Positions 30,766-54,729 of a stretch of DNA of 64,000 bases are shown in pieces. Position 1 is the first letter of the stretch. Each line of letters begins with the position of its first letter. Source of the stretch: Stylophora pistillata (Eukaryota); contig NW_019217824.1 in NCBI RefSeq assembly GCF_002571385.2, forward strand, positions 665,238 to 729,237. The letters are read 5' to 3'. The position numbers were made by a program, and so were the translations under genes. The notes under the pieces were generated by a model. It saw only the letters and a list, made by a program, of their open reading frames with translations, was not told the origin of the DNA and ran no database searches.

Positions 30766-31434
30766 CATCTCAACGTCCGTTAATAGGGGCGTATATGAGA
30801 TCTTGCAGAAAGGGGAAGGTGGCCCCTACCTGCTACCTCATTTAGAATCTGCCGGCGATTTTTTGTAGTTCTACTGGCACAATCTTTTGCGCTTCGAGAT
30901 GAATGGGAACCAAAGCAATGTCTGCGATTTTCTCTTTAATTCAGGTCATAAACAATGAAAGACATCCAACCATTTCAAAGTGTCGAGTCAAATCAAGTGT
31001 AGAGTCATACAGAGATATACACGATGTACAGATATCTCTAGTGATTTTACTCAAGGTTATAGTTCTGCAGTGTCTTAATTTACAGAAAACTCCAAATGCC
31101 AGTGGAGCGGCAGATAGTAACTGTGCCAAAACGAATACATTCAATTTATCATTACGTCTATTACTGACGAACACAAGCACTTTTAACCATCGATGTTCAC
31201 CAATGAAGAAAGAGATAACCGACTCCTTTACAAAAAAGTCCGAAGGCCTAGGTATTAGGGAAATTGTTTTAAATTGGGAGGTTGGTACTTTTCCATGCCA
31301 AACATAATCCTAACAAAAAAGAAAGAGCATTTTGTAAGAAAACATAGGGTCGTCTGGGTACATTGATTTGGAACAAGTATTATAGGTTTGACTAACTACT
31401 CTTCATCCCGAATTCGAATACTAAAAGCCTTTAA

Positions 31435-32316
31435 AGTGCCTATAACCCCCAAAAAAATTCTTGACCATATTAAATCTCTCTTTTGCACTGAGCAAAATGC
31501 TGCAAAATGCCGCAAAAATTTTTGTGTTTAGTTAAAACCCCGAATTTTTATGAATTTTCAAAGTCGTGGAAAGTCGCATGTTTTCAAAACACGACCTAGG
31601 CACGGAATTATCAAGATGGGTCTGGGTCGAGCACAGTTTGTGACGTCATTCAAGTTTGCTTCAAGGACTGGATGAAGTATCTTGACGGATATGCCTGATA
31701 AGTGCTTTGTTTTCGGGTGTAGCAACACTCCCAACAAAGAAAAAAGAATAGCACTTCATCCGATACCTTTATATGGCGCAGATGACCCGGAGCTTAAAAA
31801 AAAATAAAAGTGGGTTGACTTTGTGCAATTGAAGCGTGCACATTGGAAGCCCACAAAATACTCGGCCATGTGTTCCAATCACTTCCGAGAAGAAGATTAT
31901 TCAGTCATGTTTTCTGCTCTGACTAATAAGACTATGCAACGAAGGTTGCGAAAAAATGGAGTTGGAATTTGCGCCTTTCCGACTGATCATGCGTGGAATG
32001 TCGGAGGAAACGAAATCAGCTGAAAGCGAGCGAAGAGAAAGGTGAGAAAAATTTACCAGATCAGGCTTCAACGAAGGTTTCATCTCGTTGGGAACTTATA
32101 ATATTGACTGAGATTGGATCGGAGCCCCACTGCCGATGGCGTGGAATGACATCACTGGCCCCAGTCTCTGGTTCACTCGGTCGTTCGAAAACTAAACTCG
32201 ACTTTGAAAAATCATAAAAAGTCGCGGTTTTAACCAAACACAAAAATTTTTGCGGCATTTTGTTCAGCGCAATAGAGATTTAACACGGCCAAAAAATTTT
32301 TGGGGTTATAGGCACT
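31435..32316 (+). mobile_element. Non-autonomous Kolobok-type DNA transposon with THAP remnant
   Basis: TTAA on both sides (31431-34, 32317-20), termini AG...CT, ~130-bp imperfect TIRs beginning AGTGCCTATAACCCC; internal THAP frame. Confidence 0.85.
31691..32023 (+). pseudogene. THAP zinc-finger reading frame with one premature stop
   Basis: MPDKCFVFGCSN...LHPIP...KKK*KWVDFV...WKPTKYSAMCSNHFREEDY gives the C-x4-C...W...P...C-x2-H-F THAP signature; in-frame TAA at 31805-31807. Confidence 0.8.
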
Positions 32317-34131: not shown

Positions 34132-35461
34132 TTAATGACCAAGATATGCTTTTGCATCGTCCAGTTCCCTTGACAGATTTGCTACATACTTTTTCCACTT
34201 GTTCACTTGTTCTGAAATGGAAACAGACTTGTAAACAAAAAAAAAGACACCTAAATCTGGTTCTCCCCAAGTTGTGCAGATGGTTTTGAATTTCTTAAAC
34301 AATATAAATACTTGCCTCTTAAAAAGAGGCAGACTGCCCCTGCTACTAAAAGTTTAACAACCTCCTGCCTGCATGCTAGAGTGACTGAGAGTTTCACCAT
34401 TAACCCAGGACACAGGATACTTCTCCATAAAATTTTCCCTAGTATTTGTTCTGTTTCTGTGACAACTGGCTAATTCCCATTTAGAATGCTTCAGGGGAGA
34501 GGTACTTTTAGAGTCTTAAGGCCTTACCCAAGAACAAAACACCACAATTCAAGGTCCAAACCAGGAGCAAACAGTGCAATATGACAATTACATTATACCC
34601 AGGCCTCTCACCAGAAGTTCCCTCCAACTTCTATGGGTGGAAGAAACTTCAGTTTCAATTTTATACTGTAACTCAAAACTACTCAGGGCAGCTACCTGCC
34701 TGTAACAGCATTTTTAAAAAGACAATGAAATCAGTATGGAAATCCTGACTGCTACTTTTTACCCCATATTCTATTGTTATCAGAATGTGCACTAAATGGT
34801 ACATATAGTTCTTACGTTTCAATCTGTCCCGCGCAACCAGTAGAACCTTGATCTCAGCTTCATTAGCGATGGCCTCTGTTTCATAATTCCTGATTTGCTG
34901 CTCTTTGGTCTCAACCTCATCTTCAAAATATTCTTCACGTTTAGTGTATCGCCTGTGCTTTAATTCCAAATTTATGAGTCTTACAGTGGTAGAATCAGAC
35001 TCTTCACTGAGCTTAACAATCTTGGACTCAGCTGCATTCAATCTTGCCAGAAGCTCACTCAGTTCACATTTCATGGAGCTGTGCCTGACCTTTGCCTCAG
35101 CCAAACGCTCTTCAGCTTCGTCAGCTTGTCTCTTTTTATCTCTAACTTTTATCTCAAGCATGACAAGTACATCACTGACTTCAAATTCTTTAGACTCAAG
35201 AGACTTTCTGATCTTTTCACTCTCTTCTGCAATCTCTTCTGTGGCTCGGTGACCTTGTTGCTTTTCCTGGATTTGCCTGTAGCTGTTTGCCAATTCCTCC
35301 TTTTTTTCTTGGATCCTTTGCTTAAGTGCCTCTTTTTCATCCTTAGCCAGATCAGCCCTTTCTCTTGCTTGTCTGAGGTAACGCATTAGGTCTTTGTGCT
35401 TGTTTTCTGCCCGTTGAGTATCCTCCATAGTTTCTTTAGCCTTTCTTTTGAGTGCATCCAT
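34132..35461 (-). CDS. Short cnidarian-type tropomyosin, 2 coding exons, 241 aa
   Basis: Exon 35461-34816 starts MDALKRK and is a proline-free heptad coiled coil; donor C|GTAAG; acceptor TTTCAG| then exon 34211-34132 encodes QQVNKWKKYVANLSRELDDAKAYLGH*. Length fits the ~242-aa cnidarian tropomyosins. Confidence 0.85.
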
Positions 35462-37241: not shown

Positions 37242-40200
37242 CTGGAAAAGAGAAAAAGATGTCGCCTTCCTTTAAGTTCTAAGCTAACAGCATGATTTCA
37301 GCAATATTTTCAAATTTTCTCTCACTTGGATCTGAGTGTCCCGTTCACGGCTTTCCTTTTTGGGTTTCCGATTGCTACAAGTTATTCTTGTCTTTCATTT
37401 GGCCTGGTTACTACTATTCATTCAATTAGTACCTACTCCCCAATACAATAAACAGAAAAAAGAAAAATGAGTGCGAGGGAAACACTCGGGCGCAGAGTTG
37501 AAATAGAACGCGAGGCGCGCGCCAAGCGAGGTCTGGGAACATACTCAAACCGAGGCAATATCAGTTAAACCTACGAATGGCGATTTCATTCCCACTGGAA
37601 CAGAATGAGAACAGTAACAGAGAAAAAGAGAAATAGGAAGCAGGAACAAAAAGTTTTGTCACAATGTCGGCTGAGTGGAGTTTGGACGCCTAAAATAGTT
37701 CGTGGTACTAATCGAGTGGTTGACATAAAGTAACATTATATTTCACAAAGGATAAAGGGACACAATACGAGGAAAGAAAATATTAAGCTAGTGTGGGTGA
37801 TTTCGTGGTCGATTGTTGCTTCATTTATACTTAAGAATCAGTCTTGGCAATATATGAACCATAGAGAAGACCTTTACCGAATAACAACAATAAGTTTTCG
37901 TCAAATTTAAAAGTGCACTACTGAATTCAAGTGAGCATACGGATGCTACGCCCCTGGAAACACACACAAACTGACGAACTATTTAGAATTTTAAGAGTTA
38001 ATCTCCACCTCATACTAGGTATTTGTTTTGTGTTAATTCATACTACGAAGTTTTTCGAATGATATGAGAAACAACTCTTCCCACGCTCTATGACAAAGCA
38101 AGAAGCTGCATGCTTCTATACAGTTTAAGTAAAATCAGTTGACGTCTTGAAGAACGTCAACAGCTGCTGAAACAAACCCGCCGCTCTATGGGCCTGTGTG
38201 CCTACAGCTGCAATTTTCAAGAGTGTTTGTGCTAGCTCCACGTGTAAGAAGGGAAAGACAGCCTTCTTAAACTACTTATGACTTTTATAAGACACAATGG
38301 CTCGAAATAATTTCCCGTTTCCCTATCAAATGAGTATTCAACCAATCATAGCGAGCGGGTTATTTGAAGTGAGAATGGATTATTTTTTCAACTGGCAAGT
38401 TTACAAACCCGTTTGTGGCAGGTGCTCATTAAGTCCAAGGACTAGGAAACAGCCTCTTGAGTAACTCCTTTTTTAGACACGCAAACGGTAGAAACGAAAA
38501 AAAAAAAAAGAGAGAGAGAGAGAGAGAGCGAGAGAATCGTGAGGCAAAGGAAGAAAAAGTGAAAAGAAGCCAAAACCTTCTGAGATTGGCGGTCAGAGAA
38601 ACCGAATTAGAATCTTTTTTTATGATAATTAAGAAACATCAACAACTCTACTAGCTTCTGATATCTTTAAGAAGCGTTCGCATTTTCCCACAACCGCGCC
38701 GGAGATAAAAGTAATTGGTGTCTGTTTGTCTGAATTGCCTTTCAGTCCGGATATGATAAATAAATGTGACCTTCCCTGTTCCTAAGAGTGGAAGCAAAGC
38801 CAAAGAGTAGGCGTTACTTCTATGAGGTATAATTTGCTACTGAAAATATGCATTTTTTTCTTTTTAAACATTCTCCACCTAGTATTAATTTCTAGGGAAA
38901 AAAGGTCAAAATCAAGCTCAAGGATCGGTTTATCAGAACAAAATCGAAGAAGTTCTGCTTCATTTGATCCAACACGTAATCTACCGTCTAGACAGCTAAC
39001 AAAATGAACAAAGGAAAAGGGGCAAAATGTTATTTGCGCTCCATAACTGAATCACCCATTAGCAATAACACAAGTGCCTAAAATTGAAAAAAAAAAGTTT
39101 TCCCAAGTTTTAAGGAAACGGTAAGCAATTAAATTTGACACTGATAGCTCGAAATGAGTTAAGAATGACCGAGTAGGAACGCTAGGAAATCCGCTTTACA
39201 TTGAGTCTGAAACACATCCTTAATATCAGTTACGGAAAGGGAAATCTCATGCTTCGTACACCCACATACACAGAAGGTGCGTTGTTCTGCTTCTACGAAG
39301 GATCACGTCTTCTGCGAGGGTGTAAAGCTCGCTAAGGAAGTTTTATCAGAGATTAAACTCCCTTCCTGTCGAATGATTAAAATTAGGATAACGGAAATAT
39401 ACGTGAACACTTGAAACGCTTAACTGCTTTTGGTTAAAGAGGTTTAGTGGAGATCTACGTCGCTAATTTGGAGTTCACATGAAGATCTCAAGTTTCTCCC
39501 CATAATGTGTGATTTTCAAGGTGAGCTCGAGAGGACGGTTCTTCAGTATCATTCGGCGTAGCACGATCAAGGGCAGTTAACGCCAACTAAGGAAGTAAAA
39601 AGCTGAGATGAATTAATCTTCCACCCTTTAGGAAGTTTATGTAAGAGGGACAATGATCAATTACAAACATAAACTAACTATCGATATAGAATACGATGGC
39701 TGACCGAAAGTGAAGAAAAATGGGCTGTTAGCATGCAGTTTTGGAGCAGAAAGGATGACAGTGCTCTATTCCCGCGTTTACTTCTCGAGTTGTTCTTCTT
39801 AATGACCTTGGCCCCTGCCGAAAGGTTAGGAGAGTTCCCTTATGAGTATTACAACATGACTATATGACAGCTTCGACTGTCGCGTTGTTTTCATAAGTCA
39901 ACTAATCCTATTTTTTTTTTTTTTTTGTTATAGCAGAGTTAATAGAGTTAATTTTGGTTATAGATACCAGAATTTTTAATGTGCCCGCTTAACCATCTAT
40001 GCAAATTTCACCTTTACAAGATCAAGAGGGATGTCCGTGCCTAACACCGATTAACACGTCCCAAACTTAGATAGATGACTCGACACAGTACATTTGAACT
40101 ACTCGTGATTGCTTGTCCGCACATACGCTGTTCTTTAACACTAAATGCATGACAAGATCATGTACTATTCTCAAAAGACGTCAGAGAACCTACCTCCACT

Positions 40201-43200
40201 ACTTCCATTTGTATTTTAAAATTGTAATAATTAAAAATTTTTGCAATTTAGTTAGATGAGAGGTCCACACCAGGACTCACGTCTTACTGGTAATTTTTAC
40301 CAACCTATTTATCAAATAAGTACTACAATTACTAGAAGTAATACTGTAGCACCAAGGATATTGGAGGTCACTACTAAATCATTATGACAGTTTTGGTTCC
40401 GATAAGATTGTTTACTTAGTGGAAACTGAGAGAGGAACAACCCAAGTCAAGCCACTGAACAATTTTACATATACTACTGGCGCAGTTACTCTAATTTATT
40501 GCGGATAATCTGAGTTATCGCTCTTTGAATACATTTTCAAAGATAAAACAGCTACAGATTGGGGAGCTTTCCCGATCGATAGAACCTAAACACTTCATCG
40601 AGTCCATACACGTATCTTAAAATATGGGTGATAAATTTGCTTTCGGTCACACGTAATCACACATGTTTCCCAGCGTGGGGGTATGAATTCAGAGTCGTTT
40701 AGCTTATCAGCAAAGTTCATCAATCTCATCAATTTCAAACTGAGCTTCCGGTGCACCCCAGATATCCTCCGCTATCCACACAAAGCATCGAACGCGATGT
40801 CCTGTTGTCCAAAAATGGCCTGGCCGTGGTCCTTTAAATATTAAATAAGTCTAAGAAAATTAATTTTGCATTTGAGGCAGGTATACTATGCTCTCTCGCG
40901 GCGCTGAGTTAAGGACCCGTAAGCCTATTTTTAACGTACTAAAGGGTCTATTGCACAGCGCGTGGGACGGGCGGAGGCCGATTAAACAATCGCGTTTTCT
41001 TTTCGAGAAGAACCGATTTATCCTTATCCACTATCATGGAAAGTTTCCTGATCTGGCACAATACCCGTAGTTTTTGTACTGTGTCCCAAAATAATGAACA
41101 TTTTATTCGTTCCATTTAAATTGCTTCTTGACTCGCGCCCACTGTGGACCAAAATATATTCTTGTGACAGAAATACGAGCCACGGAAGTTAATCATTAAT
41201 TCATGATGCTACCTACATATAATTTTAGGAAAAAAAATTTATTGAATTCAAGGAAGGTTTGGCTGTTACCACACGAAATTCTTCTCCTCAGAATTCTGGT
41301 ACCCTTTTGTCTCGACAATTCCTATGGTCTACGGTTATTATAAGCACCGAGCCGAAAGCAGTGAGAAAGACAGTGATAAGGCAATGGTTCCGTACTGTTC
41401 TAAGCCATTCAAGTCGAATCCGTAATACTAACATTTCCTCATTGACTAGGCACACAAGTACTGAAACGCTAGCATGTTCTCTCGTTAATGAACGGTTTTA
41501 TGTTGAAATACTACGCATAATAAACGCAATTAGCCTCAAGGAGAATGCACAGTTCTTCTTCGTAGATCAGGAGATACTACTCATGATTTCGACCACCATC
41601 CAAAGATCTACATTTGTACAGTCCCAAAGTCCACACATTCGCGATGGAATTTGACTTTTTGGCAAATGCCTTTCGCAGGCGTCTTAAGTCGGTTGCACAG
41701 TTTACAACCATTGTGACTGCACAGTGCATGCCCACGAATGTTGATCCCAAGTCAACTGATCACTCACCGTGGTATCGGAAATAAACGTGTATGTTCATTT
41801 ATAATCAACACCCACGGTCACTTAAGCATGCGGAGGCAACGATGGTAAAAAAAAAGATTTAATCTGTATCACACATTGAATGTAAACAACACTCGCTTAG
41901 ATCCGAAAAGTCTGTGTAGTAATCTATGAATTTCGTCGATAAATGCTGTAGCAAAGGTAACACAAATGGAATCATACAAGCACATCAGAAGCGCCAGACA
42001 TGTAAATGGCTGGTTCCCACTTTAGACATTGGGCTCCTTATTACTGAACACATTGAAAAAGAAACGATTCTTATGTAGTGACTGGTTTATGTATCACTGC
42101 ATCAGATAGGTTATGGGTCATCAAAACAACCTTGAATATTATCACAGTAATTTCTTGACCGTAAGACACGTACTCTTGGAAGACGTTCATTCGGAGGAAA
42201 TCGTACCCTAATCGATGAAATATGTTTCAGTAAACGTGTCAGCGTTAATAGAGATTTTCCGGTAGAATAAGAGAAAACAGAAGACCTTGATAAGTATTTA
42301 TTTTTATACCACGGAATAAAAAAAAGCTAGAGGAAAGAAAGTTGCCTTACTTTGTATCGCTTCAGAAAGTACGTCAGGCAGAGCAAGTGAAGCCTTATCA
42401 GCCTCGGAAAGAGTCACTGGTGAGTACTAGCAGTTCACTTAGTGTTATTCATTCAAGCAGTTTGCGTAGTATCCACAAAAGCATGACAGGTGTTTGTTGA
42501 GATCAGTCAACTGAAAAGTGCCACGCTACTTTACTGCACAACTTAGTCATTATCAAGAGCTGTTTTGGCTACATAAGCTTCGTGGGTTAGGAAAAACAAA
42601 TACGGTGGCTCGTAGATGTATCGGGTCACCTCACTAATACAATTCATACTAGTAAACTCCCCAACACATTGTCCTATCTTGACAACGACATTCGATCTCG
42701 TCATTCATCAAGTTTGACCTTTAGCGCTGAAAATAAAAACAGCAGAGATAAGACCATGGAAAAAGCATGTGCTGTTTACGGCCGTTCTTAAATTTTTAAA
42801 TTTCTTGCGCAACCTTACAAAAGGAGCATATTAAATCGACATGCTCGTGCTTTGGTTCTATGCAGTGCCTGATACGATTTATATACGAGTGTCTTTTCCG
42901 GTTATCTTTTGGGATAGCTTCCTGTTCCACCGTTAGGAAAGGAAAACGCCTAGCCCTAGCAATTCTTTAACCACGTGATTTATCACCCACGCATCCGTAC
43001 TCACCTTAAAAATACAGTTGACGAAGACATTTTTTTGCATTGAAAAATAATCGCTTTGTCAATCTTCCGTGAAGATGGCAAATACAACTGCGAAGGCGTT
43101 TTTTTTCCGACAACGCAGTCGCTTTCACTTCAAGACGGAATCCAATACTACGAAGACACCACTTTTACATCATCACTACCAAATAAGGCTCTCGTTAACT

Positions 43201-46200
43201 TTTCGACACTTGTCGAAGTTCACTCGGGATTGGTTCGTATTTACTCGGAAATGGTTGTCATGGCTTTGTTATGGGATAATGTTATCCACCTACGCTCGTA
43301 TCAAGCAGTTCTGTCGCTTGTCATTAGAATGTTCAACAGGCCGTAACGCCTACGATTATATGCATAATTGGTTACAACACCAAAACCGTGCACACGGCCA
43401 ACGGAGGATCATTTCGAATGGTGTTTGCCGAGCGAGGGTACACAGCTGTAGTGACAAAAATACTTCGGAAAATATCAACACATTCTCAATCCGTTAGGAA
43501 AGGAACCTAGAACGTGACACTCTCACACGATCCCAGTCGGTGATGTTAGCAATGGCTTATCCACGTTTTCCCGCATATGAAGGTAATTATTTTTTTTTAA
43601 TTCATAACATAGGTTAGACTGTCGCTGCGACAATCACGAATTTTACGTAATCAGTAAAAAGACGTACCTTTCTAGTCTAAAAATATAAAATACTGGGTAT
43701 CTTGACCAGTCCGACAGAATTTATTCGCTTTCATGAGCTACGCCAGTTCGGATGTAATTCACAGGGTAAACGGGCCAGCTTCGCACGAGTGAACATCACA
43801 CTTTACTTGTATGTACATATATCGTTGTGAAATGGGCTCACTCGCTGTGTAAATATAAATTTAACGTAAAGTAAGACATTCCTACAGCACTAACGTAGTA
43901 ACGGAAAACACTTTCGAGAAGCTGTACGCTTTGGCATGCCAAATCGGAAACATTTTGATGCCCAGATCATCTGTATATATAGCAGTACTAACACTGGTCG
44001 TGATGGTCAGCATTGCTACTGTTTTTTCTTTACCTAACGGGAACTAGACCTGGCATTACTTTAAAAACCCGACACTCTAAGATTTTAACCTTGAAGGACG
44101 AACAGTTCGCAGCATCAAGTTTAAGTTTTAAGTTGAATTAAGCCGAAGAAAGCGGCACTTGTGAAGAACATTAACCTTTAGAGAATAACTGTTTTGGAGT
44201 AACTCAAGAAATATATGCATAGCTCGCCCACACGGTGTTCACAAAATTTCTATAAAATTCTTCGCCCAGCTGTCGCAACTTTAGGAATGGAGTTCTTCAA
44301 TCTTCTACAGCAATCAACTCCATCTTGCTAATAATTCCATGTGAGTTCTTGTCATAAAGAAATTTTCTTCATTTCTTCGCGAGTCATAGTCCACCTTACT
44401 GATATGCGTGGGTGTATACATGAAGACCAAGTGACTTCGAAAAGAAAAATATAGAGCTAGCTTTTTTTAGCGTTGATAATTCTCTTTTCAAAGCTTATTC
44501 AAAAAAAGTCTGAACATAGTAAAAGTGATTGTGGCAAAATTCGAAAATAAGACGAGATAAGTTGAGTTAAAGTTGGGTGTTAAACTGATTATCTTCTGTG
44601 TCACGCCCATAACGTTCTGGGGATCCTACCAACCTCGTACAGTTTCCCTTCTTCTCTTCTTTATCACCAAGTAAATCTATAATTCCAGTTGTTTATGAAT
44701 AACAGCTCTTAACCCCACACTGCAAAACCTTATAATAAATTCAAGTCTACTTAGTGTGCGCCCACGACTGGTTAGGATCGCCACGCAGCTGTTCGTTGGA
44801 CGGCCGAGGCCACCAGCCAACGCAGTGTAGTCTAGTTTATTACAAGCCAAAGCACCAGCTTTACAAGAGGAAAATTGGGAAAAACTGAAGAGCGTTAAGT
44901 TGCTTAACTAAAAGAAATTTTCAACAGAAAGCAATGACAAAAAGGTCTTTTATGCGGAGAATTATCTTCCCGAAAACCTCATATGAATGGCTATATTGTC
45001 AGGTTAGGAAGGTAAGCATTTCTTGTACGTACTCTTGCCCACGTGGTTACGCTATTGGCCCCACAAAACTAAAATTTTAATCTCGAAATAATGCGATTTT
45101 AAGGATAGAAAAAGAACTAAATGAAAACAAAAGGGTGTAGAAAAATCAAATTAATACACAGACCTAAAATTACAATCAATGTTGAAATAGGGTAACCCGT
45201 TCGACTCTTGCGAGCGAATACTAGCGATATCAAGACTCTACAAAATCAAGTAGATTGGAGGCGTAAAACGCATTTAGTTCCTTGCTTAAAGCCACAGAAA
45301 ACAATAGCAATTGGTGGCGCTGCAATACTGAGGCATCTTAAAGAAGTTAGAAAGACGTCATCGATGATATACATGTAGTGCAATCATGAAAGGCTACAGC
45401 TCTTCTCATCTACCTCAATGCACCTACCGGAAAACTGCATACCCTACGCTAAGACATGACTTTCCTTTTCTCCGTTTTAGCTTATAAAAGCTCGTTGAAG
45501 TTAAAGTTGTAAATGAAATGAACGCTCTTGTTTTTTCTCAAATCCACACCTCAGTACGTGCTAGTACTGCCTACTACCAGGTCTCGATTAACTACACAGC
45601 ACGACCGACATAACTGTTCCCTGTGTTCTGAGCGTCATAAATCAAACAAGGTTCTTTTTAAACAAGAAAAGAGAAATGTGCGAGAAGATAAACTGGGGAA
45701 GGTTAAAGTCGTACTTTTGAAAATAGTAGAACAACGAAACCCTTAAAAAAGGCGAAATAATCGTACCTCCAGGCTAAGGAAACACTAGCAAAAAGAATCT
45801 GAAGGATTTCAAGTGGTGACGTGTAAGTATATTAAAGCTTATACAAACAACAGAAAACACAAATACGGTCGATTAAACGGGGTAATAGTCAGTTGTGAGC
45901 AGTTAAATCAACGTAAAAGTTAATATCAAACCGATTGAACAGGAGGTTTAAGCTCTGTGCCTGGTAATTTCCTTTCCTTCCTTCCACCCGAGGATTCAAT
46001 GCCGCCAATGGAACAAATTTTAAGTCTGATTGCCGTAAAGAGGCAGTCTCCCAATTAAGAAAAAGTTGCTAACATCCGTAGGAGGTATTTAACCATCAGT
46101 AATAAGTCCATATCTGTAAAACTGAACGGCGTTTAGTAATGTTTAATTCAGGAAACAAATTACCCGGAATTTAAACCAGGAATTGGTCACGCGATGGTTA

Positions 46201-49200
46201 TAAATACGAGGTCCTTCCTTGGAGGCCTAGGAACGAACTGTCACCAATATATGAAAGCAGACTAGTTAACCTACTGTTAGTTCTGGAAGACAGAACTAAG
46301 AAATTTTAGCTGCACAAAAAGGATAAACATACCAAGGATAACAATTTGTGAGGTATGTGCGTAAAGTTAGGCAAGCTGCATGCAGCTCGCCGGAGGTTTG
46401 TTCAATGTTCTAAGGCAAAACTTTGTTATTATATTCTACTTCACAAACTGAATCAGACCGCTACTGATCGCCAACTATGATCGTTCTTTAAATGCTTCCG
46501 GCTCTGAATGCGTAGAATCCTTGTCCTAATATTTATCAGTTTTGAAGTATTGAAAAAAAGCTAACTTTGTATCAAAGAGCATTGCATACGGGGGAAGAGA
46601 ACGTCGGACAATACGTCAGTGGCATCTCATTCGAGTGATCCTCCTCTAGCTCAATTTGTCGAACCTAGTAATAATCATATGAGGCTAAAAATTTCTTGCA
46701 TGAGATTGTATCCAGTGGTCAATATTTTTCAATTAGCTACGACAAAAGAGAAAAGCTGTCTAATCGTCAGTTTTGAGGCGCAATTTTAAGTAAACATCAG
46801 TCATCTTGATGACTTTTCTTTGATGAGCCACGTCTTCACTCGCTAGCTAATTCGTGTCGCCTTTGTTGTTCCCACAATCACAGATTATATATCAAGTCTA
46901 AATTGGTTTCTGAAAATCAAGGGTTTTCAGAAAGCGTTTAGGTTAAAAGACATCGAATTAAAAAAATGAAACGTACATCCAGAGACAGAGTGTCCTTTGT
47001 TTCGTTTTGGAGTTAAAAATTCCCAATGGATGAATCGAAGCCAGTGTTAAGAGCTGATTTTTAAGTGAAAAGCCTGAGAAAAAGTCAGCAAAGCAATCAC
47101 AGATCATATTCTTAACCTCGGTCGAAAGTTTTGATTATATTTCGAAAGAAAATCCTTACCATTGCTGAGAATTATTACCAAACCTAAATTAACCCGCATA
47201 TTTATGGCTGGATATAGTGTCTTGTACTAGAATAACTATATGTTACTAAACTTGTTTCAGAAACAATAGGGTTTACGTAAACCGAAATTTTAGCAGTTAT
47301 GAAGCTTTCTAAGTCAATTTACGCCGTCTAGATTAATATATCATGAGCTGGAGACGTTTTATTTTCGATTTATGGCACGATATAAATATCTTCGGGTGAT
47401 AAATCAGTTAAATGTTTACGCCAAAGCTACGTTCTATTCTTCGAATGACAATATAGAGCAAATTAAACTGCAAGTTATTTCATTTAGAAGTTTCAAGTTT
47501 CCCCAATTGCTCATTCACTTTTTTATTCACCCCTCGTGCAACAAATTGGAAACTTAAGAAAAACGGCTGTGCTGTCAATGATATCAATTGTAATAAAGGA
47601 AAGAAATTGGCGGGGGTCGTTTGCTTAAATACAAATCTGAGACTCCGGCACATCGATTCAGCTGTACTACGAACTACTTCCTTGGGACAATTTGTGGGCA
47701 GTATTGCAAGGAAAAAGTTCCCTCCTGTTAATGGTTAACACAGCCGGCGAGTGAAATTTCGAGAAATGCCTTCAAGCTGAGAGTACGTACTGCATCATTA
47801 AACAAAGCATTGAACTTTCACAGAACCATGCGTGGGCAATAAGGTACTGTCGCACAGACTACACGCCAGGGAAAAAGTTATAGTTGCAAGGCCCATTAGA
47901 ATATTGATACTGAGTAACATTTAACAGAGCTTGACTAATAATTTTGATTGTGTCTATAAACCAACTGATTTCTAAAAACTGTTTTGAGAGCTGTGTAAAC
48001 AACTTTATTTGGCATGTCTACATGTGGAATAGGGAAACGAGTAGACTCAAATCTTTTCCCACATCATCAAAACAGAAAGAAACCCTGTATGAATTGTCAA
48101 TTGATCTAATTGTTTTACCTTGTCTTCTTTCTGTTGCAACCGGCGAAATCTTGTTAATACCATAAAATTTGTGTTGTTTCGGACAAGGCTTGGGCTAAGC
48201 TGCATCGAAAAAATTGCTTTCCAAGGTTTACTTTCACATCATTTCCTACTTTGGCTAAAGTCGTACTAACAACTCGACTGATGGAGATTAAAATGTTTGC
48301 GTGAAGACATGCAGTGGACGAAGGTCCTATTTTGTTTTCACCTGTGTCACGATAGACATAATATAAGGTTTCACTTGTGTTGTTAACGAAGCTGCACTGT
48401 GTAGGCGTCTGTCAAAGTCGGATATATTAGCTTTCTTTCAATCACTTTCTGGCGCAGACATTTCGGCTCAAACAAGCCGTGCCTTGTGCCAAGAAAGTTC
48501 ACTCGATCACACATACTGCGTTAACTCAAAGTTCTGATGCAATAACAATGGTAGTCTGATCGTCTTCTGAGAAAGAAGCACATCTTCGGACTATTTAAAA
48601 GCCTTTTCGTCTTGTACACCTCACCAAAAATGGCTGAAATCTGTAAAGGCGGCCGAGATCCTGTTGATTTCATTGACAGTTTGCAATACTGATGCTGCAA
48701 AAGTGAACAAACTTCCCTGTATGCCCTCAGGTAGGCTAGCTCCTATTCTTAAAGGTTATCTGGTAGTAACTGATGAGAGTAAATGATACTGATTTAACAT
48801 TGAGCGATGAACTAGAGTCCAATGGCTAGAGTCCAACTCCGAATGCACCCGGGAAAGAGCCTCGCATAATCAAAATACATTGGTTCAAATAATACTATAA
48901 GCCGTGAAACAACCCGCTCAAATTAGCAAATCATCAAAGATAGTCAAAGAACGTTTTTGATTAGCCCGAACACATCTTCAAAACATACAAATGGCGGCTG
49001 TGAGCGGAAGAATCCTTAACAGGGTTTTTCATTTGATAAACAGTGGAGTCGGCTAATCTTTCCCGCTTGGATTATGTAATACCTAAAAAATCAAAGTAGT
49101 CAATTCTAAAAATTGTCTTTGCCCACAAGATTAATGCGAAAGAAAGTCCTCAGAGATTTTGAGTCGGTCAATTCACTGCTGAGTTGGAAGGGGATAGCAA

Positions 49201-52200
49201 CCACATGTAGGCCACAACATACCCGTGGATAGCTTTCAGGACAACTGCCATGAACTTTCACAATTAAAATCGCTGCTATATTTGATAATGTTTAGTTCTT
49301 TAAGTCTAGAAAGAGTAGACTTTGAAATTCTCAACTAAACTGGGTCTGATATGCTAACGATCTCAAGATCTTGGCAAATGCTGCTCGCACCTGATTAGCT
49401 GCTTATCACTCCAACCAACATTTTAGCGTGCATAGGGAGTTAGAGCAAACCTTAAAATAACGCAAACTGCCGTATCCTCCAGCATCTATCCAAAAGCACC
49501 ATTTCTCGCTGTGAAAACTCTCCTTTTTAAGTATGCTAAAACGAATTGTAATGTAAAGTGCCGAATGCCAGAGCAATCAAGTCAAATCAGTTTGTTCGAC
49601 CCCAAAACGGTTGCTGCATCACAAAAGTATTTCAATTTGATTAATGCAAACAATGAATAAACACAATGTTACATTTTAACCTTGATCTTCAGCGAGCAAT
49701 TTAGTATTTTTAAGTAGACACACCGAGGAATAAACTTGTTGGCCCACAAGAAAGACTCGACCAAGTAATAGCATCACAGAGATCGTGAAAGTTCACCATA
49801 ATGAACCCTAAATTATCAACAGAACACTAAACAAGGCCGATAGGTGATAGTTAGCCGTTCATTTCTGATTCTTTCGCCTTTAATACAGTTTGCTACTCGC
49901 CTCACACACATGCACCAACACGATAAAGCGTAAGACAAAGGGTAGTCAACGCCATCATGTATGCTTTTTGAGGGAAACTTTTTCAATTCAGTTAGCAATC
50001 TAAGGACTCCCTGAATTGTGCAGCTCCTCGGCGTTGACCGACAAAAAAACGGTCAGCGTCTTTATCGGAAAACTACCTTCAGGCTTAAAAAAAAAAGAAA
50101 AAAGAGAACAAAAAAAAAAAAAATCAAAATAACTACGAGATTCCGAGGGGAGGACATTTGAGAGTTGTGGTTTTTCAGTCATGCGTTGCACAAGAAAGAC
50201 AAACAACTCGCGTGATTGATATTTGCAATGAGTTAGGGCACACCGGATGTAGGCATTGTCCAGACTGCACAGGTGGTGGTGTTGCCAACGTCGAACAGGT
50301 GAATACGCTATTATCAAACCCATCACTATGAGCTCTTGTTGATGAGCGAGGTATAATACAAGACAGAGGCAAGAACAGATCAATTGTCGCTTAAACGTTC
50401 TGATATTTTGAGGAGTCCTCTTTCATGGGAAGACATTCCGCCTTGTTTACGACAAAGCATGTAGCGTGATTCACAACCAACACAAGCCCCCGCACTTTTA
50501 ATTCGTTTTACCTGAAAGATATCGAGAGATGACGGGAATGCAGCGTCGTTTATCAACAGTAATGCTTGATATTGCCACCCCCTCATCGAGTCGTCATAAT
50601 ACTTATCCCCTGCCCTTGATAAAATTTAACACTTGTAATTCCTCAGCAATGACAGGATATTAGCTTTTATAACAGTTAGAGTAAAGACAAGAACTTAAGA
50701 ATGAAAACTAAGTCTATTGATCATCAGACTTTAAAACAAAAACAAATAGAGCCGAACAATAACGACTGGAATGTAGAAATGCCTTTTTGAGGTATCAGCG
50801 TGAATCTCAATAGCTACTCCATAGCGCGTACTGCTAACGGTGTCTGTTTGATAAATCTGCAGTGCACCTTCTAAATAAATGCATCCTCTGGTTGAACAGT
50901 GCTGGCATGTATGTTGTCCTTTCCGGCTTGCAAGGAATGCTCTTTCAATCAGTGAATTGAACGAAAGTCGTGGTGTCGTATCTCGGTTTCTTCTCGACTA
51001 GACTTATTTCATAGATGTGGCCAAAGAATTTGGGACTTTTAAAGATATTTTTCAAGGCACTACTAGGTATACGAGTTTTTCCAATTACGATTGAATGCTT
51101 GTGTGATAATTTAAAGAGAAAAACAATTTCAGGAAAAAGGGATCGCATCCCTAGAAGTGGTTGCAAAACGTGAAACTTCAAATTCTTCTTTTTCCGGTCG
51201 CCTGCTCTGAGGAACGATACCCTGCGAAGGTGCGAGGTTAAGTGGCTCCGTCCCAAACGCCCTTACGCAGGCAAAGTGTTTTTACTCAAATTCTAGTCTT
51301 ATCAATTATTAAAACTCTTTTCTTATAGATCTTATAGATCCGAGCCTGTAATACCCTTCTGTTTCCTTTTGAACATGCTGTAGGCATGAATATATGTTGT
51401 CCATAAGTACAACACTTTCAAGAAAGAAAAGAAATTTCAAGGATAGTAATGCAATCCTTTTGCAACCTCATTAATCATGCTGGCGGCAATAACTTCTGTG
51501 AGGTGATTAAGGGCGGCTCTCAAAACCACTTTTTTGGTGCGTGCACATCAAACTTGAAATCAGGGGTTACAAAGTAAACAAAATGATCACTATTTCTGTT
51601 TCAATTGGAAAGGACCGCGATTCGATTGAAAACGAGCTGTATTTAGAGCTATTTTGGTCACACTCGTAACTGCAATGAATTCTTAGTCCAAAAAGAATAA
51701 AAACATTCGTATAATGCAAAAGATAATTAATAAGACCTACACAAGCCTTAGCTATGAATACTTTCCGATGTTTTTATGAACAACTTGATCAAGTACAAGT
51801 ACATAAATATGAAACGCTGCCGGTAGTTTCAATTGGAACGTTTAGTCTCTTTGTTCTTTTTCTTTTTTTCATTTTTTGCTTCACATAAACAAAAGCAACT
51901 GCTCTGAACCTTGTGATTTACAATCACAGCTGAAGAGTCCAAAAGCAAAATAAGTCAATCGTCTTTTAAATGTGCTGACAAGGAATAAATTTCTCACTGA
52001 TGTATATTTATAAGTCGCAATCATTGTAGAAATTGAAGACTAGAATTTCCTAGGATCTCTTCAACGAGAATTATACTCATCTATGTGGTCAAGAATTTCA
52101 AATCAGTTTTAAATAGATTGCATTGAAAATTTAAATTAATGTATTTTTTATGATTCTACTTAATAATTTTAATGTTAATCGAGTTTGGTTCTATAAACAA

Positions 52201-54729
52201 AATCGTGTTATAGTTTGTCATGCTGATCACCAGTTGATGCCCGCAACCTTTCAGATTTTCTGACTATTTTTCCTTTCAAAAATTTGCTTTTATGATTGTT
52301 TCATAAATGTGGAAATATGGTAACACCTGAATTGTTCTGGTTACAGCATCAAAACAAACCCATGTTCGGTCGCCACGGAATTCAATTGCACCGTACTTGA
52401 AATGTCAGAAAACTTTGCCCACTTAACTTCAACCTAGGTTATGTTTTCAATTCTCTAAAGCTTTTGCCATTTTGAGCCTCGACGTTCTGCCGAGAGAAGA
52501 GTTTGCAGAAACTAAAAATGTACCGAGAGGCTGTCGGGTGTTACAACAGAATAAATAAAATGTGCAGTGGTCTGACTCCAATACGTTCCAATTCAGTAAT
52601 CACATCGAAGTTACCCGGACGACACAAAGATCATTTACTTTCACAATGTAGGAATCCGCCCAACTATTTGCGACTTTCGCAAGTTCATGGAATATTTATG
52701 CAAACAAACGAGAAGCTGACGAAATATTACGAAACGATATCGATCAACAACACGTCATGCTGTAGTACACTCTTAAGAAAAATGTTGATTCACGCATCAT
52801 CAATGTAAACAAAAAACTTAGTCTGAGGAGAGTGTTAACCACCAACGAAAACAAATATTATCTGTAAATAAACGTAAAACTTGTGTTGCTATGGCTTCAA
52901 TACAATCATGAAATGTTTCTTAAGTAACAAGCAGAAACGAATCGAAGAAGCAAACGTGACCGTAAGCCCAAACTGCTTCGTGACCGTAAAGTAATTTCAT
53001 TCAGTCAGAGATTGTGTTCGTGCTGACACGACGCCACCGACGGATTGCAAAACACTTGAGCAAATGCGTGACTTAAGGAGTGGTTTATATATGGGTGTGT
53101 CAGTGCTCAGACGCGTAAGGGTAAAGTTCATGCGTATTGTAGTTACGTTGCGCAATGTTGTTCAATCACGTCTTCACCAGTCGTTTCTAGAATAATCTGG
53201 ACACGCATGAGAAAGCTTACGGTCACGCACCTTTCAAGCGTGCAGCGTAAGTAAGCTTTGATCTAAAAATCAGGCGCTTTGCCTCTACGTTTTCTTCTTT
53301 AAGTTCCATATTTTGACAAAGAATTGTTATGACCCGCAATGATGAATTCCAGTATTCTTTGTATTACACTCTTTTCTTTTATTGCAGAGATGTCTAGAAA
53401 TAACAAAACAGTACGCTGAAAAAAAGAACACTTGTTCGTCTTTCATGTATATTCATGGTTACTTTTTGACTGTAAATGCGACTGAGCTATATTTGCCTCT
53501 AAAAAATCTATTCCAAAAATCATTCCCTTTTCAGTTTTCTTGAAAATGTGTAGAAGTTACATGATAAGCTCAACATAGAGTCCTGTAAACCATAGCATTT
53601 TCGTTTTTCCTTCCTTCTTTTTTCGGAGTTGCATAAAAGGTCTTTTAACTAATATGGTAACACGCGGTCTCCTGCCGGAAAGGTATCTTGGGATTCCTTG
53701 GCCATGATGAATTCATTAAAAAAAAAGTAATTAATGAGACAGCTAAACTGTTTCTCGACCACCATCTTGACAAATCAAGACAAATACTAGATAGTGAAGT
53801 GAGGTAAAAGGTTTTTCCCAAAAAGGAAGGCTAAACACTGTTTTGCTGGCACATGAAATTTCTATCACCTTCTTGAACCCTCTAATAGACAAATTCAGAC
53901 AAAACCAATTTAATATTCAAATGTTAAGACATTTTCACAACAATTATGGTGAGAAAAAGGACGAAAATAATACGAATGTTTTCTTTATGTTCTGTGCACC
54001 GTTCAAGATCTAAAGGATGTTTTTTATATCCGGCTCAAGTTATACCTGAATATCCTACCGAAAACTTTTGACGTACGGGTTTGGCACTGGTTCCGGAGAA
54101 AACCGAAAATAATCCAATATGAATGATAACTGCTACAATCGAATCACTCTCGATTGCATCGAACGAAACAAATTTAAAGCAAAATGCTGTTTTTTTTTTT
54201 TCCGAAGTGCGGACAACAAACAGGAAAGCAGACCATAACCTTCCTGATTGAAAAATGACTAGGATAACAGGAAATGTAACAAAAAGAACCTCGACCTCGA
54301 CAATACATCGTCGCAAATTTCGTCTTTTTTAGAGTAGTTTTCGTTGATAAGCCGCCACCCCGAAAGCGGCGGATCTCCAAAAACCTGATAACAATAAACT
54401 AAAAAACATCCTTAATATCGTTTCAGATTTGAATTGCAAATTCAGTCTCCCTTTCATTTAGGTGACAGAATCGACACATTTTTGAACGACATAACTCGAT
54501 TCTCCATGACCACCGCGCTTTTTTTAAGCAACTGAAATCCTCAAACTCTTTTCAAATTAGCAGTATGAGGCGAATTTCCAAAACCGTGAAGTTTTCAAAT
54601 GCGATATCATCACTCCCTTTTTCATCCGCTTTTGCTTCGCTTCCAAGATCTATGAATAAGTAATAAGTGTCAAGTTAATGATATCTGTGTTTTTCACCTG
54701 TTCCACCGGGTGAAATGAGATTCGCAGCA

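What the first reader, a model, noticed from the sequence alone, without database searches (positions are those of the whole stretch)
40673..47838. Cluster of EGR-type binding sites upstream of EGR itself: candidate autoregulatory module
Seen: GCGTGGG five times in ~7 kb (40673, 40960, 42984-92 reverse GCGTGGGTG, 44406 GCGTGGGTG, 47830 GCGTGGGCA), plus GTGTGGGCG (44225 reverse), TCGTGGGCG (44759 reverse), weaker sites at 41729, 41809 and 45036, and GAGTGGGCG (55795 reverse) at the proximal promoter. Rough base-composition estimate is well under one GCGTGGG per 7 kb. Established: RSDELTR/RSDHLTT/RSDERxR fingers read GCG(T/G)GGGCG and EGR autoregulation is known in bilaterians. Inference: a distal feedback enhancer in a cnidarian.
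Basis: partly seen in the sequence, partly recalled or inferred. Interest (0 to 1): 0.7.

Follow-up and report, generated by a model that had tools for sequence, protein, structure and literature searches.

The report
Self-binding sites around coral EGR gene
The DNA in front of a coral's EGR gene holds about six times more EGR-type binding words than chance, one of them unchanged in distant relatives beside the likely start of transcription, so the protein likely regulates its own gene, as it is known to do in vertebrates.

Summary
All listed sites are at the stated coordinates, and there is a sixth GCGTGGG at 38080. The enrichment is real. All 7 words in the window within one mismatch of GCGTGGGCG lie in the 18-kb gap upstream of EGR, against 1.1 expected (P=1.6e-4; rank 1 of 105 permuted words). 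None of 80 control blocks, 30 of them upstream of other transcription-factor genes, reach the count. The three distal stretches tested are single-copy. It is not one compact enhancer: the sites are imperfect and spread over 10 kb in loose groups. Their conservation could not be tested, because the orthologous DNA obtained stops near 48 kb. The strongest evidence is proximal. GAGTGGGCG at 55795-55803 is an exactly 9-bp invariant island just after a TATA-like box in four corals and a distant anthozoan, and an intron site varies only at position 8. Best reading: direct EGR feedback, with distal sites likely sustaining expression and the promoter site likely damping it. Binding is untested. This is the known vertebrate kind (Krox20 elements A/D/E, the EGR1 promoter site); I did not find it in print for cnidarians.

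The parts
56009..56222 (+). EGR coding exon 1 ([14 protein letters not shown]...)
   Evidence: sequence; matches spliced transcripts L009/L012/L013 and protein P0003
56711..57795 (+). EGR coding exon 2 with three C2H2 fingers RSDELTR/RSDHLTT/RSDERRR
   Evidence: Zif268/EGR1 PDB chains E=1.6e-51 over all 85 aa; named EGR1-like homologues in Acropora, Nematostella, Exaiptasia; one match at E<=1e-30 in the own genome, 150 of 422 candidates scored
55795..55803 (-). EGR-type site GAGTGGGCG at the core promoter
   Evidence: exact 9-bp invariant run in window, L003, L007, L002, L011; also present in L004, L005, L008
55784..55790 (+). TATA-like element ATTTAAG (ATATAAG in L011); label inferred
   Evidence: spliced anemone-type transcripts L012/L013 begin at the equivalent of about 55826
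55636..55722 (.). conserved promoter blocks: TTGATAAACAA, CRE half-sites (CGTCAA, TGACGCA), CCAAT-like ATTGGCT; motif names recalled
   Evidence: invariant runs in 5 of 5 genomic rows
54736..54743 (.). full CRE TGACGTCA (name recalled), kept in L003 and L007
54850..54858 (-). weak EGR-type site TCGTGGGTG; kept in L003/L007, ACGTAGGTG in L002
56303..56311 (-). intron site GCGTAGGTG; GCGTAGGAG in L003/L005/L007, unchanged in L002, not aligned in L011
56362..56370 (+). intron site CCGTGGGCA; CGTGGG core invariant in 5 coral rows, absent at this place in L011
40673..41817 (.). distal group 1: GCGTGGGGG 40673+, GCGTGGGAC 40960+, TCGTGGGCA 41729-, CCGTGGGTG 41809-; CArG-type box at 40809
   Evidence: 40500-42000 single-copy
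42984..43295 (-). distal group 2: GCGTGGGTG 42984-, GCGTAGGTG 43287-; CArG-type box at 43179
   Evidence: 42800-45200 single-copy
44225..45044 (.). distal group 3, the densest (4 sites in 0.82 kb): GTGTGGGCG 44225-, GCGTGGGTG 44406+, TCGTGGGCG 44759-, ACGTGGGCA 45036- (the last is also an E-box)
   Evidence: single-copy
47830..48633 (+). distal group 4: GCGTGGGCA 47830+, GTGTAGGCG 48399+; CArG-type box at 48624
   Evidence: 47300-48700 single-copy
37791..38813 (.). outer sites GTGTGGGTG 37791+, GCGTGGGAA 38078- (also a CSL-type word), GAGTAGGCG 38805+
34679..35461 (-). divergent neighbour: tropomyosin-like ORF (rival target of the distal sites)
   Evidence: Pfam PF00261 E=1e-19; ATG at 35461

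Best explanation
The 19 kb in front of and within this coral EGR gene carry an excess of imperfect EGR-type sites, which the EGR protein likely binds to feed back on its own gene. Shown: the gene is an EGR with Zif268-type recognition helices; the words are enriched; one promoter site and two intron sites are conserved in other corals, and the promoter site also in a distant anthozoan. Inferred mechanism: CRE-type (conserved) and perhaps CArG-type inputs switch the gene on after a stimulus. New EGR protein would then occupy the distal groups at 40.7-48.4 kb, likely acting as several weak autoregulatory enhancers that amplify or prolong expression, like zebrafish krox20 elements A, D and E. It would also occupy the invariant site between the TATA-like box and the likely start, a position that would hinder pre-initiation complex assembly and damp the pulse. 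The imperfect sites would make occupancy depend on high EGR levels. The sign of each effect is untested.
For: Words within 1 mismatch of GCGTGGGCG: 7 of 7 in the window lie in 37600-55900, against 1.1 expected from 243 GC- and CpG-matched tiles (P=1.6e-4); rank 1 of 105 permuted words, next best P=0.03. 0 of 80 control 20-kb blocks (50 random, 10 bZIP-upstream, 20 homeobox-upstream) reach the EGR count for any of five patterns. Around GTGGG cores, C is enriched at site positions 2 (13 vs 4.6) and 8 (12 vs 4.3), as EGR predicts. KLF/SP, Hes, GLI, E-box and AHR words are not enriched. The three stretches tested are single-copy and no repeat carries the sites. The promoter site is an exactly 9-bp invariant run across five genomes including L011, whose EGR (99% to P0024) is about 65% identical to this one. 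The intron site changes only at position 8. L011 has its own unaligned GCGTGGG excess, 2 vs 0.21, 3 of 300 shuffles. GCGTGGGCA binds Zif268 at 0.27 of consensus (PMC1184061). Precedent: PMC3792346, PMC6095606, PMC7084410.
Against: There are no binding, chromatin or expression data. Conservation of the distal sites is untested; at 47.5-48.8 kb L003/L007 align no better than shuffles and hold no CArG box or matching site. No perfect site exists, and GCGGGGGCG-type words are not enriched (1 vs 0.92). GCGTGGGAC (40960) and GCGTGGGAA (38078) measure 0.041 and 0.064 of consensus. The outer G positions 1 and 9 show only trends (P=0.12, 0.05). The coral NAB gene, a classic vertebrate EGR target, has no such site in its 3.2-kb upstream gap. 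Five of six more distant EGR-like loci show no excess (L051, L052, L053, L067, L078; L070 has 4 vs 1.1). The pattern allowing TAG was written after I had seen the sites, so its P values are optimistic. The promoter site lies in a region where 40% of columns are invariant and longer invariant runs exist.
Confidence: 0.62

Rival explanations
1. EGR feedback is real only at the promoter and intron. The distal excess is bound by EGR but serves the divergent tropomyosin-like gene, or has no effect on EGR transcription.
For: The distal sites are 3-10 kb from the CpG-rich stretch near 37.5 kb (inferred promoter of the neighbour) and 8-15 kb from EGR. 48-55.9 kb holds only 1 one-mismatch word. Only proximal sites have conservation evidence.
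Against: Of all places in a 398-Mb genome, an excess that 0 of 80 control blocks reach sits in the gap next to EGR itself. The unmethylated-type CpG domain runs unbroken from 36 to 58 kb. Distal autoregulatory elements are the vertebrate precedent.
Confidence: 0.17
2. The CGTGGG(C/T) words are sites for another factor (CSL/Su(H), a Zic/Glis- or WT1-like finger protein, or a core-promoter factor at 55795) that regulates EGR from outside.
For: The firmest part of the signal is CGTGGGY (10 vs 1.3 per 20 kb), and outer Gs are less fixed. CSL-type words number 4 vs 1.4 (P=0.05). 38078 is a full CSL word; 40673 resembles Zic/Glis sites (recalled).
Against: Position 8 is enriched for C, not the A that CSL needs. 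The conserved promoter footprint is exactly the 9-bp EGR frame. TGG/TAG and position-8 changes between species fit EGR tolerance (tolerance partly recalled).
Confidence: 0.11
3. A chance cluster picked out after the fact, helped by the CpG-rich, unmethylated-type composition of the gap.
For: Among all 7-mers seen in the region GCGTGGG has P=3.6e-5, which would not survive correction for 6,611 words. Other tight pairs of strong sites in this genome were mostly duplications or repeats.
Against: The word was fixed in advance by the protein next door. Matched tiles, permuted words, shuffles and transcription-factor-gene controls all fall short. Chance does not explain the conserved proximal sites.
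Confidence: 0.1

Closest known systems
Krox20/EGR2 autoregulatory elements A (mouse, chick, zebrafish), D and E (zebrafish)
   Same: Distal clusters of the factor's own sites at its own locus; several elements; poorly conserved between species (PMC3792346 passages; PMC6095606 passages). The zebrafish EMSA probes printed there also hold imperfect sites.
   Different: Chick element A has 7 putative sites in 416 bp and the zebrafish one 5 in 1 kb. The densest coral group has 4 in 0.82 kb and the rest are spread over 10 kb. Those elements are proven by EMSA, reporter and knockout; these are not. Corals have no hindbrain and one EGR gene was found.
EGR1 binding site (EBS) in the mammalian Egr1 promoter
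   Same: An own site in the promoter; EGR1 binding there lowers Egr1 expression (review PMC7084410, passages). CRE-type elements are also present.
   Different: The mammalian site overlaps an SP1 site, and the promoter is driven by serum response elements. The coral site is GAGTGGGCG, directly after a TATA-like box, and the proximal 7 kb has no perfect CArG box.
Acoel (Hofstenia) egr wound-response network
   Same: An invertebrate EGR acting through EGR motifs after injury (secondary passages).
   Different: The primary paper was not held, so egr self-regulation in the acoel is recalled only. PMC12804838 says Nematostella egr expression does not support a conserved regeneration-induction role.

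Membership tests
EGR/Zif268 transcription factor | three C2H2 fingers with RSDELTR, RSDHLTT, RSDER(K/R)R helices | tested here: met
EGR autoregulatory element (Krox20 element A type) | excess of the factor's own sites at its own locus | tested here: met
EGR autoregulatory element (Krox20 element A type) | compact cluster of about 4-7 sites within 0.4-1 kb | tested here: inconclusive
   best group 4 imperfect sites in 0.82 kb (44225-45044); the 7-kb span as a whole is not compact
EGR autoregulatory element (Krox20 element A type) | sites of high affinity | tested here: inconclusive
   no perfect site; published values exist for three of the words only (0.27, 0.064, 0.041); GCGTGGGTG as a good site is recalled
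EGR autoregulatory element (Krox20 element A type) | sites or their excess kept in related species (distal) | tested here: inconclusive
   orthologous DNA reaches only about 48 kb; no sequencing runs were listed
EGR autoregulatory element (Krox20 element A type) | direct binding, and enhancer activity that needs the sites and the protein | not testable with these tools
   needs EMSA, CUT&RUN, reporters
EGR1-type promoter EBS (negative feedback) | conserved own site in the proximal promoter | tested here: met
   55795-55803 invariant in window, L002, L003, L007, L011, present in L004, L005, L008
EGR1-type promoter EBS (negative feedback) | binding lowers transcription | not testable with these tools
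   inferred from position only
SRE-driven immediate-early promoter (mammalian Egr1 type) | CArG boxes in the proximal promoter | tested here: not met
   no perfect CC(A/T)6GG between 48634 and the gene, and none upstream in L002-L005, L007, L008, L011; three lie distally, 3 vs 1.1 expected, P=0.10
repeat- or transposon-derived motif cluster | sites inside multi-copy or internally duplicated DNA | tested here: not met
   40500-42000, 42800-45200, 47300-48700 each match only themselves (the tool skips very common words); no site-bearing repeat among those shown

The most novel reading that the evidence does not exclude
EGR self-regulation predates the cnidarian-bilaterian split, and anthozoans run it with two arms. 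One is a fixed EGR site wedged between the TATA box and the start of transcription, kept unchanged across hexacorals, that shuts the pulse off. The other is a set of fast-turnover distal groups, each near a CArG box, that pair signal input with positive feedback.
Probability: 0.3. Interest if true: 0.62.

Novelty: new member of a known kind. Interest (0 to 1): 0.42.

Why it matters
EGR feedback is established in vertebrates. A cnidarian case would date the loop to the common ancestor of cnidarians and bilaterians, and give the first named cis-elements for a gene reported as disease- and heat-responsive in corals (PMC4636412 passages; that probe's EGR label rests on a weak BLAST hit). The invariant promoter site is a single 9-bp target that can be mutated in Nematostella or Exaiptasia reporters. 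The concept itself would not surprise a specialist.

Tried and rejected
Cross-species test of the distal sites: no related genomes are held. Metagenome loci L003/L004/L007/L008 stop near the 48-kb equivalent, and L005's upstream 7.5 kb does not align. The PacBio run search listed none, which is no evidence. Scans of viral and prokaryote contigs gave only unrelated zinc-finger hits of 42-68% identity. An 11.5-kb own-genome DNA search was not scored, so three smaller stretches were searched; 37500-40500, 42000-42800 and 45200-47300 were not tested for copy number. NAB as a positive control showed no sites. Seven close pairs of TGCGTGGGYG from the first 100 of 434 listed matches were examined. 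Four are local duplications with identical or near-identical flanks, two lie in or by repeat-like ORFs, and one is a true cluster. So pairs alone are no evidence. A CArG-EGR pairing is only suggestive (count P=0.10; nearness P=0.02-0.06). No Rfam family lies in 36-57 kb. A published EGR weight matrix could not be obtained, so mismatch classes and permuted words were used. No earlier findings of this scan bore on the locus.
Full report
The gene. Window 56009-56222 and 56711-57795 (+) encode an EGR protein. Its fingers read RSDELTR, RSDHLTT and RSDERRR and match Zif268/EGR1 chains over all 85 residues (E=1.6e-51). Named homologues are EGR1-like proteins of Acropora (82%), Nematostella (66%) and Exaiptasia (67%). 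One locus matched in the own genome at E<=1e-30, with 150 of 422 candidates scored. Upstream lies a gap of about 18 kb with CpG o/e near 1, no Rfam family, and a divergent tropomyosin-like ORF beyond it.

The observation. No perfect GCG(T/G)GGGCG occurs.

Chance. The genome rate is 14,665 GCGTGGG in 397.6 Mb, about 0.26 per 7.2 kb. Five were seen, and 0 of 300 dinucleotide shuffles reach that. Because the 7-kb bounds were drawn round the sites, I tested the whole gap with a definition fixed by the protein: at most one mismatch to GCGTGGGCG. All 7 such words in the window fall in 37600-55900, against 1.11 expected from 243 tiles matched for GC and CpG (P=1.6e-4); 6 lie in 37.6-48 kb and 1 in 48-55.9 kb. 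The word ranks 1 of 105 permutations with the same letters and CpG count. At two mismatches it ranks 2 of 105, behind its own one-base shift. The 20 kb upstream of the fingers was compared with 50 random blocks, 10 blocks upstream of bZIP matches (10 of 15 found) and 20 upstream of homeobox matches (20 of 118). None of the 80 reached the EGR count for any of five patterns; for example GCGTGGG 6 against a control maximum of 4, and one-mismatch words 7 against 4. Blind to the protein, GCGTGGG ranks 2 of 6,611 7-mers and CGTGGG 1 of 2,053 6-mers in 35500-55950, but neither would survive correction for all words.

Whose sites. Around the 28 GTGGG cores in 37600-56710, C is enriched at EGR positions 2 (13 vs 4.6, P=2e-4) and 8 (12 vs 4.3, P=5e-4). 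G at positions 1 and 9 shows only trends (P=0.12 and 0.05). KLF/SP, Hes, GLI, E-box and AHR words are not enriched; CSL-type words are borderline (4 vs 1.4, P=0.05) (these consensus words are recalled). Measured Zif268 affinities relative to GCGTGGGCG are 0.27 for GCGTGGGCA, 0.15 for GCGTGGGAG, 0.064 for GCGTGGGAA and 0.041 for GCGTGGGAC (PMC1184061, parts 1-2 of 6 read). So 47830 is a fair site, and 40960 and 38078 are weak. That GCGTGGGTG and TAG-centred words bind well is recalled; the source papers were not held. The stretches 40500-42000, 42800-45200 and 47300-48700 are single-copy, and no internal repeat shown carries the sites. The sites form loose groups: 40673-41817, 42984-43295, 44225-45044 (4 in 0.82 kb) and 47830-48407. 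Three perfect CArG-type boxes (40809, 43179, 48624) each lie 108-225 bp from a site, but this is only suggestive (3 vs 1.1, P=0.10; nearness P=0.02, or 0.06 within 37.6-49 kb).

Conservation. One search gave 80 EGR-related loci. Six genomic ones with upstream DNA align to the window at about 78% (L002, L003, L004, L005, L007, L008; L003/L004 and L007/L008 are near-identical pairs), and L011 is far more distant. They align well to about 54.3 kb and in patches to about 50 kb, so the distal groups are out of reach. At 47.5-48.8 kb alignment is no better than shuffles and no CArG or matching site is found, which is inconclusive. Proximally the result is clear. CGCCCACTC at 55795-55803 is an invariant run of exactly 9 bp in the window, L003, L007, L002 and L011, with divergent bases on both sides in L011. 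It starts four bases after a TATA-like ATTTAAG (ATATAAG in L011), and two spliced anemone-type transcripts begin about 23 bases downstream of it. These are assemblies from other species, so the start position is inferred. Other invariant runs there are CRE-half, CCAAT-like and Fox/GATA-like words; 40% of the 449 columns upstream of the ATG are invariant. The intron site 56303 is GCGTAGGTG here and in L002, and GCGTAGGAG in L003, L005 and L007. Site 54850 is kept in L003/L007 and changes TGG to TAG in L002; the 56363 core is invariant in the five coral rows. L011 lacks the two intron sites at these places but has its own GCGTGGG at two unaligned places (2 vs 0.21, 3 of 300 shuffles). Of six more distant EGR-like loci examined, five show no excess and L070 has 4 one-mismatch words vs 1.1.

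A control that failed. The genome has one NAB-domain gene. Its 3.2-kb upstream gap holds no EGR-type site by the patterns used, so the vertebrate EGR-to-NAB loop gets no support here.

Mechanism. Most likely (0.62) EGR binds its own locus. The distal groups would sustain expression, as krox20 elements A, D and E do (PMC3792346 passages; PMC6095606 passages, which also report that such elements are poorly conserved). The promoter site would damp expression, as EGR1 binding to its own promoter does in mammals (review PMC7084410 passages). Enrichment and proximal conservation are shown; binding, target gene and sign are inferred. Rivals: distal sites serve the tropomyosin-like neighbour or nothing (0.17), another factor's sites (0.11), chance (0.10).

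Novelty. The kind is known. Searches for EGR autoregulation in cnidarians or acoels listed no paper describing it. I read passages of PMC12804838, PMC8049744, PMC8651858, PMC13046036, PMC10232395, PMC4636412 and PMC2709573 and saw the rest as listings only. The library lacks most subscription papers, including Gehrke 2019. In Hydra, one study finds the Egr motif gaining accessibility after injury and another finds no enrichment. Verdict: a real feature, a new member of a known kind, interest 0.42.

Noticed in passing
G000:C12:323057-323858 (L092 end, L093 start): Four strong EGR-type sites (GCGTGGGCG twice, GCGTGGGTG twice) in 0.8 kb between two divergent long ORFs of 348 and 423 aa with no Pfam match; tighter and closer to consensus than the cluster in this window, a candidate EGR target enhancer.
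   Followed up: partly
genome-wide, G000: TGCGTGGGYG occurs 434 times against 224 for the reversed control, and GCGTGGG 14,665 against 8,197; in 0.92 Mb of random blocks the two 7-mers were equal, 28 vs 28, so the genome-wide excess may come from repeats.
   Followed up: no
G000:C23:845275-846036 (-): Single NAB-domain (NCD1) gene, so the EGR co-repressor family exists in this coral; no EGR-type site in its upstream gap.
   Followed up: partly
window 55880-55945: The EGR 5' UTR holds blocks conserved from corals to anemone-type transcripts (e.g. ACTGTTGATCAGTT, 14 bp invariant in five genomic rows), a possible RNA-level element.
   Followed up: no
window 55355-55460: A second strongly conserved block with a TATA-like TATAAA at about 55406 and CRE-like words, possibly an upstream promoter or enhancer.
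   Followed up: no
window 58000-58700: The EGR 3' region stays alignable at about 78-80% in several corals as far as 58,690, suggesting a long conserved 3' UTR.
   Followed up: no
window 1-64000: CpG o/e switches sharply between about 0.15-0.4 (14-22, 34-36, 58-60, 62-64 kb) and about 1 (24-32, 38-56 kb), the pattern expected of gene-body methylation beside an unmethylated regulatory domain.
   Followed up: no
L005:1-7500: This coral contig matches L003 at 96% near EGR but its upstream 7.5 kb aligns to nothing else fetched: an insertion, rearrangement or misassembly about 0.9 kb upstream of the ATG.
   Followed up: no
window 31580-32290: A THAP-like broken ORF (MPDKCFVFGCSN...) flanked by similar inverted ends near 31430-31520 and 32200-32300, likely a small transposon remnant; read by eye, name recalled.
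   Followed up: no
L204-L213 (genome contigs): Multi-C2H2 zinc-finger-like genes on long contigs labelled Endozoicomonadaceae/Oceanospirillales (Sansalvadorimonas, Ca. Endonucleobacter), 42-49% identical to the EGR fingers.
   Followed up: no
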